Below are positions 259 through 5,191 of a stretch of DNA of 5,191 bases, piece by piece. Origin of the DNA: a virus (lineage: Duplodnaviria > Heunggongvirae > Uroviricota > Caudoviricetes); the IMG/VR virus record IMGVR_UViG_2541047787_000001. One strand, written 5' to 3'. The position numbers and the translations under genes were made by a program. Each line of letters begins with the position of its first letter. Positions within the stretch are counted from its first letter, which is position 1. The notes under the pieces were generated by a model that ran no database searches, was not told the origin of the DNA, and saw nothing but the letters and a program-made list of their open reading frames with translations.

Positions 259-3200
259 TCAGCTGATACTGATGCCTGCGGTGGCTTTCTTCATCACCAC
301 AACCAGCAAATCGCTGATACTTGCTGTGGGATACCAGTCATTTACCAGCCATGCTGACACCGAAAACTCCAGCGTCATGTGGCCGTGACCAGCTGGCATA
401 TCAATAACACCACTGTAAATCAGCGTATTATCCAGCGCGGTACGGTTATAAATTTCAGCACCATTTTTCTTCACTATCAGGCGGCATGACGAATAAATAT
501 CGTTATTCTCCCGCTCATGTTTAGCGCCGCAGAATGCCACCGCTGGAATAACAATTTGCCTGTCAAAAGGCTGATCGTCATAAATCCTGACGGTAATGGT
601 CCCTGATGGCCACCGCTCCGGTGCCCGGGAGTCCCGCGGGAAAGCCTTACCCACTGTTTTGACAATATCGCCTTCAATCTGATTGGCTGACAGTTTCCCC
701 TTAATCTGACAGTTCTCATTAATCGTGACGTTGTTGAGCGTCCCGGAGTTCGCATTCACACTGCCACTGATATCCGCATTTTTAGCAGTCAGCTTTCCGT
801 CCGGTGTCAGGGAAAATGCCGGTGGATTTCCACCGCTGGTAATGGTGGGGGCCGTCAGATACTTCAGGAACACGTCGTTCATGAATATCTGATCGCCCTG
901 ACCAACAAACATCGGTTTTGTGTTGCCATTCGCAGGATTAACCATCGCAATCCTGTCCGCCGCCAGCAGCACCTGACTCTGCATGCCGTCAGGGGTGTTC
1001 TCAATACCGGCACCAATACCCGCGATATAAAGGCGTCCGTCCTGCATCTGCTGCAGCTTCACAGCCCACATGCTGTTCAGGTTATTATTTGTATCAACCT
1101 GAACCTTCTGTATCTGCTGAATTGCCGCACTCTGGTCTTCCAGTTTCTTATTGACGGTCTGCGTGATTTCATTGCTGACATCCGTAATGGACGTCCTGAT
1201 TTCAGCCAGGTCAGGCGCAAGCTGACCGTTATCAATCTGCGTCCACAGCTCCTGAGCCAGATGGGTTTTCCCTATCTCGCCTTTGAAAAAATCCAGATAG
1301 CCGGATGCATCATCACTCGGCTGACCAACAGCCTCCACGAATGCCGATTTGCCAACGGTGTTCACACTGCGAACGTAAAAATAATAATCATGGCCCGGCC
1401 TGATATTGATACTGGCGGCTATCCAGTACAGCGCCGTGCCAAGATAGCGTGCTGTGGTTTCAACCTGCCTGATATCCGCAATCCGCTTTTCCGAGAACCA
1501 GAACTCAAACTGTACCGTCGGATCATAAACCGCAAGATGCGGCGTGGCGGTTATCTGAAAATAGCCCGGTGTCAGCTCAATCCGAGACGGCGCTGCCGGT
1601 GCGGCAATCCGGAACGATACCGATGCCGGATCGCCCTGCTGTCCCCACGCATTTACCGCCCGGACTGTCAGCCTGTAGTTCCCCAGCGCCAGTTGTGTGA
1701 AGCGGTATGTGGTTTCCGTCGTCCTGGCTGTGCTGACCAGCCGCTCACTGCCGTCATCCGCTGTCACGGTCAGACGGAGCAGGAAGCTCACGCCCTTCAC
1801 CACCTTCGGTGTGTCCCAGCGCGCCAGCACCTGATATTCCCCGCTGTCTGCAGTGACTTCGGCGGTCAGATGCTGCACTGCTGGCGGCGTGACACCATTC
1901 ACCGTGCCGCTCTGGTCACCGTCAAAGTGCGCCCCGTTATCCACGATGGCCTCTTTTTCCGGCACATGCTGCACGGCAGTGATGGCATACGTGCCGTCAT
2001 CGTTCTCACGGATACTCACACAGCGGAACAGGCGCTGACGCAGCGTCGGCAACTTCAGCCCCCACACGCTGTATCCGGCAACGCCGTCAGGAACACGGCT
2101 CACTTTTACCTTCACGCCGTCGGTGACGGACTGAACCTCCACGCTGACCGGATTGCCACTTCCGTCAACCAGGCTTATCAGCGTGGTACCGGAGGATGGT
2201 AGCGTGATTTCACGGTCGAGCGTCAGCGTCCGGGTCTGGCTGTTTACCGCCAGCACGCGCCCGCCGATGCTGATACCGGCATAGTCATCATCACAGATTT
2301 CAATAACATCGCCCGGCACATGGCGAAGCCCTTCTGCGCCCACGCTGAAGTCCACGGTCTGCGTTTCCAGCAGCTCTGTTTTAATCAGCCACAGCCCGGC
2401 GCGGTGTGCCTGCCCCCGGCTGGTACAGCCAAAAGCATCCATCTTCGTGACGTTACGACCGTAACGGGCAATAGCCTGCGTATCCTCCACAAGCTCTGTC
2501 GCCGTCTCCCAGCCGTTGTTCGGGTCAATCCAGTTCACCTCAACGGCATTATGGCGGTCTTTCAGGGCGCTGAAGCTGTAGCGGAACGGCGCGCCATCAT
2601 CCGGCATCACCACATTACTGCGGTTATAGGTCCACACCTTATCCGACGGTCGGTCCTGCACGAATGTCAGCGTCTGCCCGTTCCATACCGGCATACAGCG
2701 CATCGCCGAGCAGAAATCACTGAGCACATCCCACGCCTTTCGCTGTGTGGTCAGGTACGCATTACAGGCGATGCGCGGCTCCGTGCCGCCAAAGCCGTCC
2801 GGCACCGACTGGTCGCAGTACTGGCCGATGACATACAGCGCCCATTTATCCACATCCGCCGCACCAAGACGTTTTCCCATGCCGTAGCGCGGATGGGTCA
2901 GCATATCCCACAGACACCAGGCCGGGTTGTTGCTGTATGCCGGTTTAAACGTTCCGTCCCAGATACCGCTGTATTGCCGCGTCTGCGGGTTATAATTCGA
3001 CGGCACCTGCAGAATACGCCCGCGCAGATGATAATTACGGCTCACCTGCTGGCTGCCGAACTGCTCCGAATCCACCTGTACGCCGACCAGTGCCGTGTTC
3101 GGGTAGCCCTGTTTCACATCGATGATTTCGGTGTATGACGACCAGAGCGTTTTGTTCTGCAACTGGTCTGTGGTGCTGTCCGGCGTCATCCTGCGCATCC

Positions 3201-3738
3201 GGATATTGAACGGGCGCGGCGGCAGGTTACCCACCACCACCGAGGCCAGATACTGTGAGGTGGTTTTGCCTTTAATGGTGATGTCTTTTTCCGTCACCCA
3301 GCCACCGTTACGTTGTATCTGAACCAGCAGGCGGACTTCCGACGGATTCCTGTCCCCCTTTGAGGTGGTTTCCACCAGTGCCTGCACGCCGAAGGTAAAA
3401 CGCAGTCGGTCAATGTTTGCCGACGTGATGGTCCGGGTGATCGGCGTGTCGTATTTCACTTCCGTACCCAGCACCGCCTCGGAGCCGGAGGATTCAAATC
3501 CCTCCGGCGGTGTCTGCTCCTGCTCACCGGCCCGGAACACCACCGTGACGCCGGAGATGTTGGTATTCCCCTCACTGTCCAGCACCGGCGTACTGTTCAG
3601 CAGCACGCTTTTTAATCCATCCACCGGACCTTCAACCGGCCCTTCGCTGATGGCATCGATCACACTCAGCAGCTGCGTGGACTTCAGGTTGTCCTTCGCT
3701 TCGCGCGGGGTATGCCCCTTACTGCTGCCTTTACCCAT
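259..3738 (-). CDS. J: Central tail fibre / host specificity protein J (tail tip protein), 1159 aa
   Basis: The 3480-nt ORF translates to [26 protein letters not shown]... and is recognisably lambda gpJ across its N-terminal ~800 residues as I recall that sequence. The central part (about 1324..1902) contains tandem fibronectin-III-like segments (e.g. ...[23 protein letters not shown]..., ...[16 protein letters not shown]...). The C-terminal ~350 residues diverge from lambda (see findings). An SD GGAG sits at 3747..3750 (minus-strand sense), 8 nt upstream of the ATG at 3736..3738. Gene order L-K-I-J-lom supports the call. Confidence 0.97.
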
Positions 3739-3750: not shown

Positions 3751-3760
3751 ATAAACGATA

Positions 3761-3780
3761 AAACCGCCCGGAGGCGGTTT
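3761..3780 (-). promoter_or_regulatory. I-J intergenic RNA hairpin (AAACCGCC-UCCG-GGCGGUUU) followed by a U-rich tract; possible partial terminator/attenuator or mRNA-stabilising structure
   Basis: The inverted repeat is read directly from the sequence: an 8-bp stem (5 GC pairs plus 3 AU pairs) with a 4-nt loop, followed on the minus strand by UAUCGUUUAU and then the J SD. It lies in the 60-nt gap between the I stop (3799..3801) and the J start (3738). Confidence 0.35.
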
Positions 3781-3798
3781 CACATAAAACGTTTTTCA

Positions 3799-4440
3799 TC
3801 AGCGACCAATCACCACAACCTGACCACCATCCCCTTCGTCTGCCGTGCTGATCTCCTGAGAAACCACGCGTGACCCCACGCGCATTTCACCGTACAGAAC
3901 AGGCAGAACATTGCCCTGGGCAACCATGTTATCCAGTGAAGAGAAATAGGTGTTCTGTTTGCCGTTATCCGTTGTCTGTGTGCGGGGGGTTCTGGCTTTC
4001 GGTGCCAGCATCTGCGCCACACCACCGAGCACCATACTGGCACCGAGAGAAAACAGCAGATTACTCGCCATAATTCCTACCCCCGGCATCCATATAGCAA
4101 CCGCCATAACAGCCGCCCCCAGCACAGCCTGAAACACACCGCCACTTTTGGCTCCCGCCAGACGCGGCACGATATGGATCACAGCACCATTTGCCAGCGG
4201 TTCATTAAGACGGGCTGATAATTCCGTTTCACCTGTATCACGCCCGGCAATGCGTACCTGATACCAGCCGTCGCTCAGCTTCTGACGAAACACCGGGATC
4301 TGCATGGCCAGCGCCCGGATGGCTTCGGCCCCCGTTTTCACACGCAGATCGATGCGGCGGCCAAATCGTTGTAAATCCCCGTAAAGGCAGATGCGTGCCA
4401 TGCCTGGTGACGCCAGAGGGAGTGTGTGCGTCGCTGCCAT
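3799..4440 (-). CDS. I: Tail tip assembly protein I (N-terminal ubiquitin-like beta-grasp domain ending in Gly-Gly, then a hydrophobic Gly/Ala-rich segment and a conserved C-terminal region), 213 aa
   Basis: The translation MAATHTLPLASPGMARICLYGDLQRFGRRIDLRVKTGAEAIRAL...HIVPRLAGAKSGG...LFSLGASMVLGGVAQMLAPKARTPRTQTTDNGKQNTYFSSLDNMVAQGNVLPVLYGEMRVGSRVVSQEISTADEGDGGQVVVIGR matches lambda gpI as I recall it, with a diverged and shorter hydrophobic middle segment. The Gly100-Gly101 codons are at 4138..4143. An SD-like AGAGAGG lies about 11 nt upstream of the ATG at 4438..4440. The position between K and J is as in lambda. Confidence 0.92.
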   Translation of the reverse strand: MAATHTLPLASPGMARICLYGDLQRFGRRIDLRVKTGAEAIRALAMQIPVFRQKLSDGWYQVRIAGRDTGETELSARLNEPLANGAVIHIVPRLAGAKSGGVFQAVLGAAVMAVAIWMPGVGIMASNLLFSLGASMVLGGVAQMLAPKARTPRTQTTDNGKQNTYFSSLDNMVAQGNVLPVLYGEMRVGSRVVSQEISTADEGDGGQVVVIGR

Positions 4441-5081
4441 TTGTCGGTATACCTCTCTCGTTTGCTCAGTTGTTCAGGAATATGGTGCAGCAGCTCGCCG
4501 TCACCACAGTAAATGGCGGCATGATTCGGCACCGATGAACCAAAGCAGCACAGCAGCACATCGCCCGGTTGTGCTGATGACAACGGCACCTGATACAGCC
4601 CTGTGGCCTCCAGATTATCCAGATAGAGATTCTGGCCGTTACGCCACCAGTCATCCTCACGATGAAAGTCCGGCATCTCAATCCCCGCCAGATGATAAGC
4701 ATCCCGGAACAGCGTGTAACAGTCCGTCACCCCGTGCTCAAAGCGCCGCCCGGTAAGATGCGGCACACAGCGGAACTTGTGAATCGCCCTCCGGCAGACC
4801 AGCCACCACGGCAAATCACTCTGCACCTGCAGCCGCCGGTCGGCCTCACTCAGCCAGGGCAGACCACCGGGGTGACTGTGGACCAGCGAGACAATCTCAC
4901 CCTGCATTTCTGCCTGCAGCCAGTCCTCCGGAGCCATCCGGAAATAATCCTCCGGCTCACCGGAAATATTCACGCAGGGAAAATATCTTTCCCCCTCCGG
5001 CGTTCTCACCACGAAGCCGCACGACTCCGCTGGCGCACATCGCCGGGCGTGCGCCAGAATCGCTGATTCTGTCTCTGTCAT
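4338..5081 (-). CDS. K: Tail tip assembly protein K, two-domain: N-terminal JAB/MPN (JAMM) metallopeptidase-like domain plus C-terminal NlpC/P60-like cysteine peptidase domain, 247 aa
   Basis: The translation from the ATG at 5079..5081 is MTETESAILAHARRCAPAESCGFVV...LVHSHPGGLPWLSEAD...GVTDCYTLFRDAY...NHAAIYCGDGELLHHI.... The JAMM motif HxHx7Sx2D is at residues 68-81 (nt 4839..4880). The NlpC/P60-like region has Cys121 (nt 4719..4721) and His187/His199/His200 (4482..4487). The start lies 4 nt after the L stop codon. The supplied ORF track extends the ORF upstream to 5156, but that extension overlaps the L 3' end and precedes the conserved MTETES N-terminus, so 5081 is preferred. An alternative internal start exists at 4935..4937 (see findings). 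Confidence 0.88.
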   Translation of the reverse strand: MTETESAILAHARRCAPAESCGFVVRTPEGERYFPCVNISGEPEDYFRMAPEDWLQAEMQGEIVSLVHSHPGGLPWLSEADRRLQVQSDLPWWLVCRRAIHKFRCVPHLTGRRFEHGVTDCYTLFRDAYHLAGIEMPDFHREDDWWRNGQNLYLDNLEATGLYQVPLSSAQPGDVLLCCFGSSVPNHAAIYCGDGELLHHIPEQLSKRERYTDKWQRRTHSLWRHQAWHASAFTGIYNDLAAASICV

Positions 5082-5085
5082 GGGA

Positions 5086-5191
5086 TTACTGCGAAAGTTT
5101 GTTAATGGAAAGGAAGCCGCCAAAGTTGCCGACGTTATTGCGAAACTTACAGCCACTCAGGCATTTGCTGCATTTATCCTTCGTGATATCG
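5086..5191 (-). CDS. L: Tail tip protein L, 3' partial CDS (C-terminal 34 codons plus stop); cysteine-rich C-terminus consistent with the Fe-S-binding tail of lambda gpL
   Basis: Only one minus-strand frame is open across 5086..5190. It translates to ...DITKDKCSKCLSGCKFRNNVGNFGGFLSINKLSQ* with a TAA stop at 5086..5088. The cysteine cluster (CxxCxxxC) and the position immediately upstream of K match lambda L. It is absent from the supplied ORF track because it is truncated at the window edge. Confidence 0.8.
   Translation of the reverse strand, partial: DITKDKCSKCLSGCKFRNNVGNFGGFLSINKLSQ

What the first reader, a model, noticed from the sequence alone, without database searches (positions are those of the whole stretch)
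4138..5081. A ubiquitin-like domain ending in Gly-Gly (I) paired with a JAB/MPN plus NlpC/P60 double peptidase (K), encoded in overlapping genes
K carries an intact JAMM signature (H68-S-H70...S78..D81, with candidate upstream Glu19/29/31) and a papain-like NlpC/P60 region (Cys121, His199/His200). Gene I begins with a compact ~100-residue domain ending ...RLAGAKSGG, immediately followed by a hydrophobic segment, which resembles a ubiquitin-like beta-grasp domain with a C-terminal di-glycine. Comparative-genomics work has previously proposed that the JAB domain of K processes the ubiquitin-like domain of I in lambdoid phages, so this is not new. It is still mechanistically under-tested, and this variant, with its different post-GG segment in I, offers a natural comparison.
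Basis: partly seen in the sequence, partly recalled or inferred. Interest (0 to 1): 0.4.

Follow-up and report, generated by a model that had tools for sequence, protein, structure and literature searches.

The report
Lambda-type tail genes K and I
These are the ordinary tail-tip assembly genes K and I of a lambda-like prophage of E. coli: K is a double protease and I starts with a removable ubiquitin-like domain, a pairing predicted in 2006 and recently reported as confirmed by experiment.

Summary

The locus is a common E. coli lambdoid prophage. K is 95% and I 81% identical to lambda, in L-K-I-J-lom order. Iyer et al. (2006) predicted that the JAB domain of K removes the Ubl of I. A 2025 conference report says this was shown for lambda, and a 2026 preprint reports equivalent N-terminal removal in F-pyocin. 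The finding is therefore already known.

One correction: the Ub/MoaD terminal Gly-Gly corresponds to G96-A97, which is conserved across the family. G100-G101 is found in only a minority of relatives and starts the first hydrophobic helix. The cleavage site is unresolved and may lie upstream of Gly101. The different post-GG segment is real, but it is the commonest E. coli variant.

The parts
4338..5081 (-). Gene K, tail tip assembly protein K (247 aa), a JAB + NlpC/P60 double peptidase
   Evidence: ORF. Pfam domains. 95% identical to K of a resequenced lambda. RefSeq calls it 'C40 family peptidase' at the same coordinates.
4785..5072 (-). JAB/MPN+ (JAMM) metalloprotease domain, K residues 4-99. 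Catalytic E19 is at 5025-5027. The H68-x-H70-x7-S78-x2-D81 motif is at 4839-4880.
   Evidence: PF14464, E 1.9e-13. Motif residues present in 175-176 of 177 homologs. Coordinates checked. Weak matches to the NCBIfam desampylase model and to PDB 2kks_A.
4410..4751 (-). NlpC/P60 (C40) papain-like domain, K residues 111-224. C121 is at 4719-4721, H187 at 4521-4523 and H199 at 4485-4487.
   Evidence: PF00877, E 5.5e-13. Triad placed from the alignment to 8idc_E. Conservation: C121 176/177, H187 177/177, H199 168/177.
3799..4440 (-). Gene I, tail tip assembly/plug protein I (213 aa from M1). An alternative start, M14, is at 4399-4401 and gives 200 aa.
   Evidence: ORF. 81% identical to lambda gpI. 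RefSeq starts it at M14. Most distant homologs begin at the M14 equivalent.
4150..4404 (-). Ubiquitin-like beta-grasp domain of I, residues 13-97. It ends in the conserved tail P92-R-L-A-G96-A97.
4150..4155 (-). G96-A97, the positional counterpart of the terminal Gly-Gly of ubiquitin, MoaD and SAMP. This is the candidate scissile region.
   Evidence: G96 is in at least 90% of diverse homologs and P92 is invariant. hhalign pairs G96 with the penultimate Gly of MoaD and SAMP1. The HMMER match to MoaD 3rpf_C ends at the same column.
4138..4143 (-). It sits at the start of hydrophobic helix H1.
   Evidence: Sequence. A Gly-Gly starting at this offset occurs in only 24 of 93 distinct family tails. 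In the fusion model the helix starts at the equivalent Gly.
4006..4137 (-). Variable hydrophobic helix-turn-helix segment of I, residues 102-145 (H1/H2 of lambda gpI). In lambda these are predicted to be membrane-inserting helices.
   Evidence: Kyte-Doolittle maximum is 2.3 at residue 109. Two helices in the AF2 fusion model have pLDDT 81-95. The segment is 10 residues shorter than in lambda. Variant classes are listed.
3799..4005 (-). C-terminal plug domain of I, residues 146-213 plus the stop codon. This part is seen as a trimer inside the lambda tail tip.
   Evidence: Differs from lambda gpI at one position in the printed alignments. It matches PDB chains 8iyk_I and 9e7m_Ia.
4338..4440 (-). 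K/I overlap. The last 34 codons of K and the first 34 codons of I use the same DNA, with I in the -1 frame relative to K.
   Evidence: The C-terminal tail of K is conserved at protein level in a homolog that is 57% identical, and that homolog has a 64-nt K/I overlap.
5086..5191 (-). 3' end of gene L (tail tip hub protein). Its stop is 4 nt upstream of the K start codon.
   Evidence: Sequence. Annotation of a 99.5%-identical E. coli genome.
259..3738 (-). Gene J, central tail fibre/host specificity protein (1159 aa). It is the assembly partner into which the C-terminal domain of I is inserted.
   Evidence: Pfam J-specific domains. Synteny.

Best explanation
This is the K-I pair of a lambda-type tail-tip assembly module (L-K-I-J) in an E. 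coli lambdoid prophage.

Protein I is made as a precursor with three parts. The first is an N-terminal MoaD/SAMP-like beta-grasp Ubl (about residues 13-97). The second is a hydrophobic helical hairpin (about 102-145). The third is the C-terminal plug domain (146-213), which ends up as a trimer inside the tip cone, holding the C-terminus of the tape-measure protein.

Protein K is a non-structural maturation enzyme. Its JAB/MPN+ zinc protease domain recognises the Ubl and cuts its extended C-terminal tail. This releases the Ubl, so only the hairpin-plus-plug part of I stays in the tail. The Ubl probably acts as a removable chaperone or steric checkpoint during tip assembly.

What is shown here: the domain identities, the intact and conserved active sites, the beta-grasp fold, the synteny, and near-identity to lambda.

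What comes from the literature: K-dependent cleavage in lambda, and absence of the N-terminal region from mature particles.

What I infer: the scissile bond more likely lies at the family-conserved G96-A97 (Ub G75-G76 equivalent) than after G100-G101. The equally conserved NlpC/P60 site has a second, still unidentified substrate.
For: - Pfam JAB and NlpC/P60 hits are above the curated cut-offs, and Lambda_tail_I hits I.
- Both active sites are conserved in 177 homologs down to 36% identity.
- K's best NCBIfam resemblance is the archaeal desampylase model, below threshold.
- The L-K-I-J-lom synteny is intact. K is 95% and I 81% identical to lambda.
- The C-terminal domain of I matches the solved lambda tip chains, where only residues about 134-223 (or 101 onward) are resolved.
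- K is not found in lambda virions.
- Lambda virion mass spectrometry covers 9.87% of gpI. That equals 22 of 223 residues, the length of the C-terminal tryptic peptide (my inference).
- A conference report states that gpK cleaves the Ubl from gpI after gpI joins the tip complex.
- In F-pyocin, the N-terminus of PA0640 is present in stalled tips and absent from mature particles. PA0639, the K homolog, is essential for tip formation.
- On the site: G96 is conserved in at least 90% of homologs and P92 is invariant, while G100-G101 is not conserved. G96 aligns with the penultimate Gly of MoaD and SAMP1. Helix H1 starts at the GG in the model.
Against: - No cleavage was tested here, and the direct experimental claim is available only as a meeting summary that names no cleavage site.
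- The attempt to co-fold K and I through a natural K-I fusion gave pLDDT below 50 for K residues 76-219 and no contact output, so docking of the Ubl tail in the JAB site is not shown.
- The sequence alignments to MoaD and SAMP1 that place G96-A97 are statistically weak on their own (hhalign probability 29% and 3%; HMMER E 0.45).
- The F-pyocin preprint saw the N-terminal region removed by unknown host proteases when the I homolog was expressed alone in E. coli, so non-K proteolysis is possible.
- The role of the NlpC/P60 domain is unknown.
Confidence: 0.85

Rival explanations
1. The mechanism is the same, but the cut is exactly where the first reader placed it: after the G100-G101 di-glycine. 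The Ubl would be released as residues 1-101 and the mature plug protein would start at V102.
For: Gly-Gly is the canonical P2-P1 pair for JAMM enzymes (general knowledge). G100-G101 is present in this protein, in lambda and in a sizeable minority of homologs. One homolog, P0287, has Ala at the G96 position but keeps K-G-G.
Against: Many homologs have a single Gly or no Gly at this position (for example ...GAKSGF......GASKSP......GAAKNP...), whereas G96-[A/S] is kept. G96-A97 aligns with the terminal GG of MoaD and SAMP1. The modelled helix H1 begins at the GG. One lambda paper says residues from 101 onward are resolved in the closed tip, which, if exact, places G101 in the mature protein.
Confidence: 0.35
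2. The papain-like NlpC/P60 domain of K, not the JAB domain, removes the Ubl from I. The JAB domain would serve only as a Ubl-binding module or act on another substrate.
For: The Cys-His-His triad is as well conserved as the JAMM site. Most eukaryotic deubiquitinases are papain-like, and Iyer et al. raised this possibility. They also note that some prophages pair I with a K that has only NlpC/P60.
Against: The meeting report attributes the cleavage to gpK and describes only a deubiquitinating domain in it. JAB enzymes paired with MoaD/ThiS-type Ubls are an established functional pair in prokaryotes. K's JAB resembles the desampylase model, and I's Ubl resembles SAMP1 and MoaD.
Confidence: 0.07
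3. The Ubl of I is not specifically processed by K. Either it stays attached but disordered in the virion, or host proteases trim it, and K acts only as a chaperone or on another target.
For: The cryo-EM papers say only that the N-terminal domain is unresolved. PA0640 expressed alone in E. coli lost its N-terminal region to unknown host proteases.
Against: The JAMM site is conserved and strictly adjacent to Ubl-bearing I genes across distant phages. The N-terminal region is detected in stalled F-pyocin tips but not in mature ones. There is a direct claim of K-dependent cleavage. Only a C-terminal-length peptide of gpI was found in lambda virions.
Confidence: 0.06
4. K is a virion-associated cell-wall hydrolase that digests peptidoglycan during DNA injection, as its 'C40 family peptidase' annotation suggests.
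For: NlpC/P60 enzymes are typically peptidoglycan endopeptidases. There are weak matches to RipC-type hydrolases.
Against: K was not detected in lambda virions by mass spectrometry and not resolved in any tail structure. The K homolog is also absent from mature F-pyocin. No signal peptide or cell-wall-binding domain was found by Pfam.
Confidence: 0.03

Closest known systems
Bacteriophage lambda gpK and gpI (tail tip assembly proteins K and I)
   Same: Same genes in the same order, L-K-I-J-lom. K is 95% identical over all 247 residues to K of a resequenced lambda. I is 81% identical, with the C-terminal plug domain differing at one position in the alignment. The K/I overlap is the same 103 nt.
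   Different: I differs in a patch of the Ubl (residues about 68-84) and in the post-GG hydrophobic hairpin, which is 37 residues here against 47 in lambda. The lambda reference record annotates K as only 199 aa, because it lacks one base that resequenced lambdas have.
Pseudomonas aeruginosa F-type pyocin PA0639 (K homolog) and PA0640 (tip plug protein, I homolog)
   Same: Same module. Only the C-terminal part of the plug protein is in the mature particle, the N-terminal region is removed at a 'proteolytic checkpoint', and the K homolog is essential for tip formation and absent from particles. The F-pyocin preprint calls PA0640 a structural homolog of lambda gpI. PDB chains named 'putative (phage) tail assembly protein' (25vf_9, 9l9p_A) also match I, but their source organisms were not established here.
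   Different: Distant sequence, and a tailocin rather than a phage. The protease responsible is stated there to be unknown.
Archaeal SAMP1/SAMP2 with the desampylase HvJAMM1, and bacterial CysO-Mec+ / QbsE-QbsD pairs (MoaD/ThiS-type Ubl plus JAB protease)
   Same: A MoaD/ThiS-type beta-grasp is cut at its C-terminal tail by a JAMM metalloprotease encoded nearby. I's Ubl is structurally closest to MoaD, SAMP1 and CysO. K's JAB is closest to the desampylase model. The pairing logic is from Iyer et al. and general knowledge.
   Different: There is no E1-like adenylating enzyme, no sulfur-carrier or conjugation role, and no free Ubl gene. The Ubl is the N-terminal part of a structural protein precursor and ends in Gly-Ala rather than Gly-Gly. 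The protease carries a second peptidase domain, NlpC/P60.
Phage T5 baseplate hub protein pb3 plug domain
   Same: The C-terminal part of I occupies the same place and has the same closing role as the pb3 plug in the tail tip lumen.
   Different: In T5 the plug is an insertion in one large protein. [quoted passage not shown] That paper does not mention a Ubl for T5, and I did not examine T5 here.

Membership tests
JAB/MPN+ (JAMM) metalloproteases | Profile match to a JAB/MPN domain model above the curated threshold | tested here: met
   PF14464 Prok-JAB, residues 4-99, 50.7 bits against a cut-off of 25, E 1.9e-13.
JAB/MPN+ (JAMM) metalloproteases | Complete JAMM motif: upstream Glu plus H-x-H-x7-S-x2-D | tested here: met
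   E19, H68, H70, S78 and D81 are present with exact spacing. Each is conserved in 175-176 of 177 homologs.
JAB/MPN+ (JAMM) metalloproteases | Zinc-dependent (iso)peptidase activity on a Ubl C-terminus | not testable with these tools
   Supported only by the literature. The co-fold attempt was uninformative.
NlpC/P60 (MEROPS C40) papain-like peptidases | Profile match above the curated threshold | tested here: met
   PF00877, residues 111-224, covering the full length of the model, 49.2 bits against a cut-off of 23.
NlpC/P60 (MEROPS C40) papain-like peptidases | Catalytic Cys, catalytic His, and a third polar residue about 12 positions after the His | tested here: met
   C121 (D-C-Y), H187 (N-H-A-A-I-Y) and H199. 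These were placed by alignment to 8idc_E and are conserved in 95-100% of homologs.
NlpC/P60 (MEROPS C40) papain-like peptidases | Known substrate (peptidoglycan stem peptide or other) | not testable with these tools
   No substrate can be inferred. K is absent from virions.
Ubiquitin-like beta-grasp domains of the ThiS/MoaD/SAMP/Urm1 type | Beta-grasp fold | tested here: met
Ubiquitin-like beta-grasp domains of the ThiS/MoaD/SAMP/Urm1 type | [quoted passage not shown] | tested here: not met
   The homologous positions are G96-A97 (Gly-Ala; Gly-Ala/Ser/Gly across the family). The literal G100-G101 lies four residues further on and is not conserved. I therefore file it as a Ubl domain with a conserved single Gly, as Iyer et al. 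described.
Ubiquitin-like beta-grasp domains of the ThiS/MoaD/SAMP/Urm1 type | Partner E1-like adenylating enzyme (needed for conjugation or sulfur transfer) | tested here: not met
   No ThiF/MoeB-like gene occurs in the window or in 17 kb around the same locus in a 99.5%-identical genome. It works as a cleavable fusion domain, not as a conjugated modifier.
Lambda-type tail tip assembly module (L-K-I-J) | Gene order and orthology to lambda L, K, I and J | tested here: met
   Synteny V-G-T-H-M-L-K-I-J-lom-stf. PHROG tail families match. K is 95% and I 81% identical to lambda.
Lambda-type tail tip assembly module (L-K-I-J) | C-terminal domain of I equivalent to the plug seen in solved tail tips | tested here: met
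   I residues 126-212 match 9e7m_Ia and 8iyk_I almost perfectly (E 1e-48 to 1e-109).

The most novel reading that the evidence does not exclude
K is a two-substrate maturation protease. Its JAB domain cuts I at the family-conserved G96-A97 bond, not after the visible Gly-Gly. Its equally conserved NlpC/P60 domain carries out a second tail-maturation cleavage whose enzyme has never been identified, for example the processing of the tape-measure protein H into H* and HC. The C-terminus of H is held by the plug domain of I.
Probability: 0.1. Interest if true: 0.55.

Novelty: already known. Interest (0 to 1): 0.15.

Why it matters
The K-I pair is one of the clearest prokaryotic cases of a ubiquitin-like domain paired with a JAB 'deubiquitinase', here used as a proteolytic checkpoint in virus tail assembly. 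This window adds no new biology. It is a common E. coli prophage copy, nearly identical to lambda.

Two points are useful. First, annotation: lambda's reference K is truncated by a one-base error, and I is annotated with three different start codons. Second, the cleavage site should be looked for at the conserved Gly-Ala (96-97) as well as at the Gly-Gly (100-101).

Tried and rejected
1. Co-folding K with I. The tools fold single chains only, so I used a natural K-I fusion from the database (P0157, 428 aa) with a mixed K and I alignment (A4). K residues 76-219 came out with pLDDT below 50 (pTM 0.41), and the tool returns no contacts, so it says nothing about docking.

2. A cleaner trimmed alignment (A5). 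MAFFT laid the Ubl sequences over the K region, so I discarded it.

Single-protein scans returned only close relatives plus three distant loci.

4. Programmed -1 frameshift making a K-I fusion, by analogy with lambda G/GT. I is in the -1 frame of K, but there is no X_XXY_YYZ heptamer anywhere in K. The fused proteins in the databases are one- or two-member clusters, and those I read have different junctions. I rejected this idea.

5. Choosing between M1 and M14 as the start of I by comparing 80 close loci. The M1 codon and peptide are invariant, but K-frame constraint on the same bases confounds this, so it is inconclusive.

6. Searching for a full paper from the group that reported K-dependent cleavage. 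Only the meeting summary is in the library. The lambda tail structure paper behind 8IYK is not in the library, so the first modelled residue of gpI could not be checked.
Full report
WHAT IS IN THE WINDOW

All real genes in the window are on the minus strand. They are:
- the 5' part of a lom-like gene (1-191);
- J (259-3738, 1159 aa);
- I (3799-4440, 213 aa);
- K (4338-5081, 247 aa);
- the 3' end of L (5086-5191).

The whole window is at least 99% identical to 7 complete E. coli records and matches 4677 of 5426 genomes. In the best match the surrounding order is the classic lambda tail cluster: V-G-T-H-M-L-K-I-J-lom-stf-tfa. The K-I region is 92-96% identical to many lambdoid phages, whose records call these genes 'tail tip assembly protein K' and 'tail tip assembly protein I'.

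CHECKING THE OBSERVATION

K matches Pfam Prok-JAB on residues 4-99 (E 1.9e-13) and NLPC_P60 on residues 111-224 (E 5.5e-13). Both are well above Pfam's curated cut-offs.

The JAMM motif is exact: H68-S-H70, seven residues, S78, two residues, D81. The acidic residue upstream is E19, in the E-x-C-G motif.

In the NlpC/P60 half the nucleophile is C121. The alignment to the RipC-type chain 8idc_E shows that the catalytic His is H187, in the motif N-H-A-A-I-Y, and that H199 is the third triad residue.

I aligned 177 full-length homologs at 36-96% identity. Every one of these residues is kept in 95-100% of them. Both active sites are therefore under selection.

I matches Pfam Lambda_tail_I on residues 14-97 (E 6e-24). 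The sequence does read ...VPRLAGAKSGG (G100-G101), followed by a strongly hydrophobic stretch. The genes overlap by 103 nt.

IS THE N-TERMINUS OF I A UBIQUITIN-LIKE FOLD?

I predicted residues 1-110 with an alignment of 60 diverse homologs. Mean pLDDT was 83.7, with block means of 88-95 over residues 11-90. Strands fall at 13-19, 29-34, 59-64 and 87-93, with helices between them. Residues 1-12 are disordered.

K's best, though sub-threshold, NCBIfam resemblance is to the archaeal desampylase, the JAMM enzyme that cuts SAMPs.

WHERE DOES THE UBL END?

In alignments of 37-60 homologs at 30-58% identity, P92 is invariant and G96 is present in at least 90%. Position 97 is Ala, Ser or Gly.

Among 93 distinct family tails, a Gly-Gly starting at the window's offset occurs in only 24. 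Many relatives have a single Gly there, or none, for example ...GAKSGF......GASKSP... and ...GAAKNP....

Three alignments place the end of the Ubl. An HMMER match to the solved H. pylori MoaD (3rpf_C) ends at the same column. By eye, HIVPRLAGA (89-97) also lines up without gaps on ubiquitin's HLVLRLRGG (68-76).

So G96-A97 is the counterpart of the ubiquitin Gly-Gly. In the fusion model the first hydrophobic helix begins at the G100 equivalent. One lambda paper states that gpI is resolved from residue 101 onward in the closed tip.

The individual sequence alignments are weak, and I cannot see PDB coordinates. I therefore give roughly even odds that the cut is at G96-A97 rather than after G101. 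The site is not stated in any source I could read.

WHAT THE LITERATURE ADDS

- Iyer, Burroughs and Aravind (2006) described the Ubl in 'TAPI' and the JAB plus NlpC/P60 domains in 'TAPK'. They proposed that the JAB releases the Ubl at the conserved C-terminal glycine.
- Three cryo-EM studies of lambda find only the C-terminal part of gpI in the tip: residues 135-223, 134-222, or from 101. It forms a trimeric plug holding the C-terminus of gpH. None of the three resolves gpK, and the one that ran virion mass spectrometry did not detect it.
- The virion mass-spectrometry table gives gpI one peptide and 9.87% coverage. That is 22 of 223 residues, and the only 22-residue tryptic peptide is the C-terminal one (my inference).
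[quoted passage not shown] It also shows that the K homolog PA0639 is essential for tips and absent from particles.

MECHANISM

I is a precursor. Its Ubl probably keeps the hydrophobic hairpin and plug soluble, or blocks a later assembly step. K's JAB domain removes the Ubl once I is in the J-L-I complex. The hairpin and plug stay in the tail and later open on receptor binding.

The domain identities, fold, active-site conservation and synteny are shown here. The cleavage itself and its timing come from the literature. The exact bond and any role for the NlpC/P60 domain are inferred or unknown.

Because the NlpC/P60 triad is as conserved as the JAMM site, a second catalytic task is likely. A speculative candidate is the unexplained cleavage of gpH, whose catalyst is stated to be unknown.

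THE 'DIFFERENT POST-GG SEGMENT'

This is real. The segment is 37 residues here and 47 in lambda, with different sequence. However, among the 120 closest database clusters the 37-residue class is by far the commonest. Hybrids between the window type and the lambda type also exist. It is a variable, mosaic helical hairpin, not a special feature of this locus.

ANNOTATION POINTS

The lambda reference (J02459/NC_001416) annotates K as 199 aa. The JAB N-terminus is in another frame there because the record lacks one base. Independently sequenced lambdas and relatives span 302 bases where the reference has 301, and one of them, PV340536, annotates a 247-aa K.

I is annotated with three different starts. 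These are M1 in the lambda reference, M14 in RefSeq prophages (64-nt overlap), and V34 in PV340536 and many gene calls. V34 would delete the first two strands of the beta-grasp. Distant homologs start at the M14 equivalent, and one has the same 64-nt overlap. Residues 1-12 are disordered in the model. Residue numbers here follow M1.

VERDICT

The finding is accurate, but it describes a known system in an ordinary member. Novelty: already known. Interest: low.

Noticed in passing
L087 (lambda NC_001416) 835-980; the window equivalent is 4935-5081: The lambda reference sequence annotates K as 199 aa. It lacks one base (GAGGCT-ATTTCC against GCTTATTTCC in relatives), which puts the first 48 codons of the JAB domain, including the catalytic Glu, out of frame. 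Many other lambda and lambda-derived records span 302 bases here where the reference has 301. One of them, PV340536, annotates a 247-aa K. This is probably an error in the 1982 sequence.
   Followed up: yes
window 4341-4440 (5' end of I): Public records annotate the start codon of I in three different ways: M1 (4440), M14 (4401) and V34 (a GTG just after the K stop). The V34 version would remove two strands of the beta-grasp domain. Distant homologs support the M14 equivalent.
   Followed up: partly
window 3758-3783, minus strand, between the I stop (3799) and the J start (3738): A G+C-rich hairpin (GAAACCGCC-UCCG-GGCGGUUU) followed by UUAUCGUUU sits in the 60-nt I-J spacer. Folding the 63-nt spacer gives -20.9 kcal/mol, z -2.8 against shuffles. 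A 'terminator' feature is listed among the annotations under the match to phage Ayreon; I did not check its exact position. It could attenuate or stabilise the transcript between I and J.
   Followed up: partly
proteins P0157, P0215, P0132, P0239 (K-I fusions), P0003/P0005/P0051 (partial K fused to I), P0144/P0150 (L-K fusions): The databases hold K-I and L-K fusion proteins in clusters of one or two members, and the K-I fusions I read have different junctions. The P0157 junction falls in the CACACAC run at the start of I. They look like indels or assembly errors in prophages, not programmed frameshifting. No slippery heptamer exists in K.
   Followed up: partly
protein P0303 (2783 aa) from the representative search: A very long protein gave 23 separate matched stretches to a short N-terminal piece of I (the best to residues 10-46, 44% identity). 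The stretch of it that was printed contains repeated units such as ...TKFAKWGDGLERRQQYRTSERLLQSLAQLCFGLRRGNLEIFA.... This is either repeat-driven noise or a repeat protein built from a Ubl-like fragment.
   Followed up: no
window 1261-2202 (+) and 2320-3138 (+): Two long open reading frames (313 and 272 aa) lie antisense to gene J. They have Arg/Pro/His-rich translations typical of non-coding antisense frames in G+C-rich genes.
   Followed up: no
I residues 68-84 (window 4189-4239): Apart from the post-GG hairpin, nearly all differences between this I and lambda I cluster in one surface patch of the Ubl domain (DTGETELSARLNEPLAN against DVSTSGLTAQLHETLPD). The flanks are close to identical, which suggests mosaic recombination inside the gene.
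   Followed up: no
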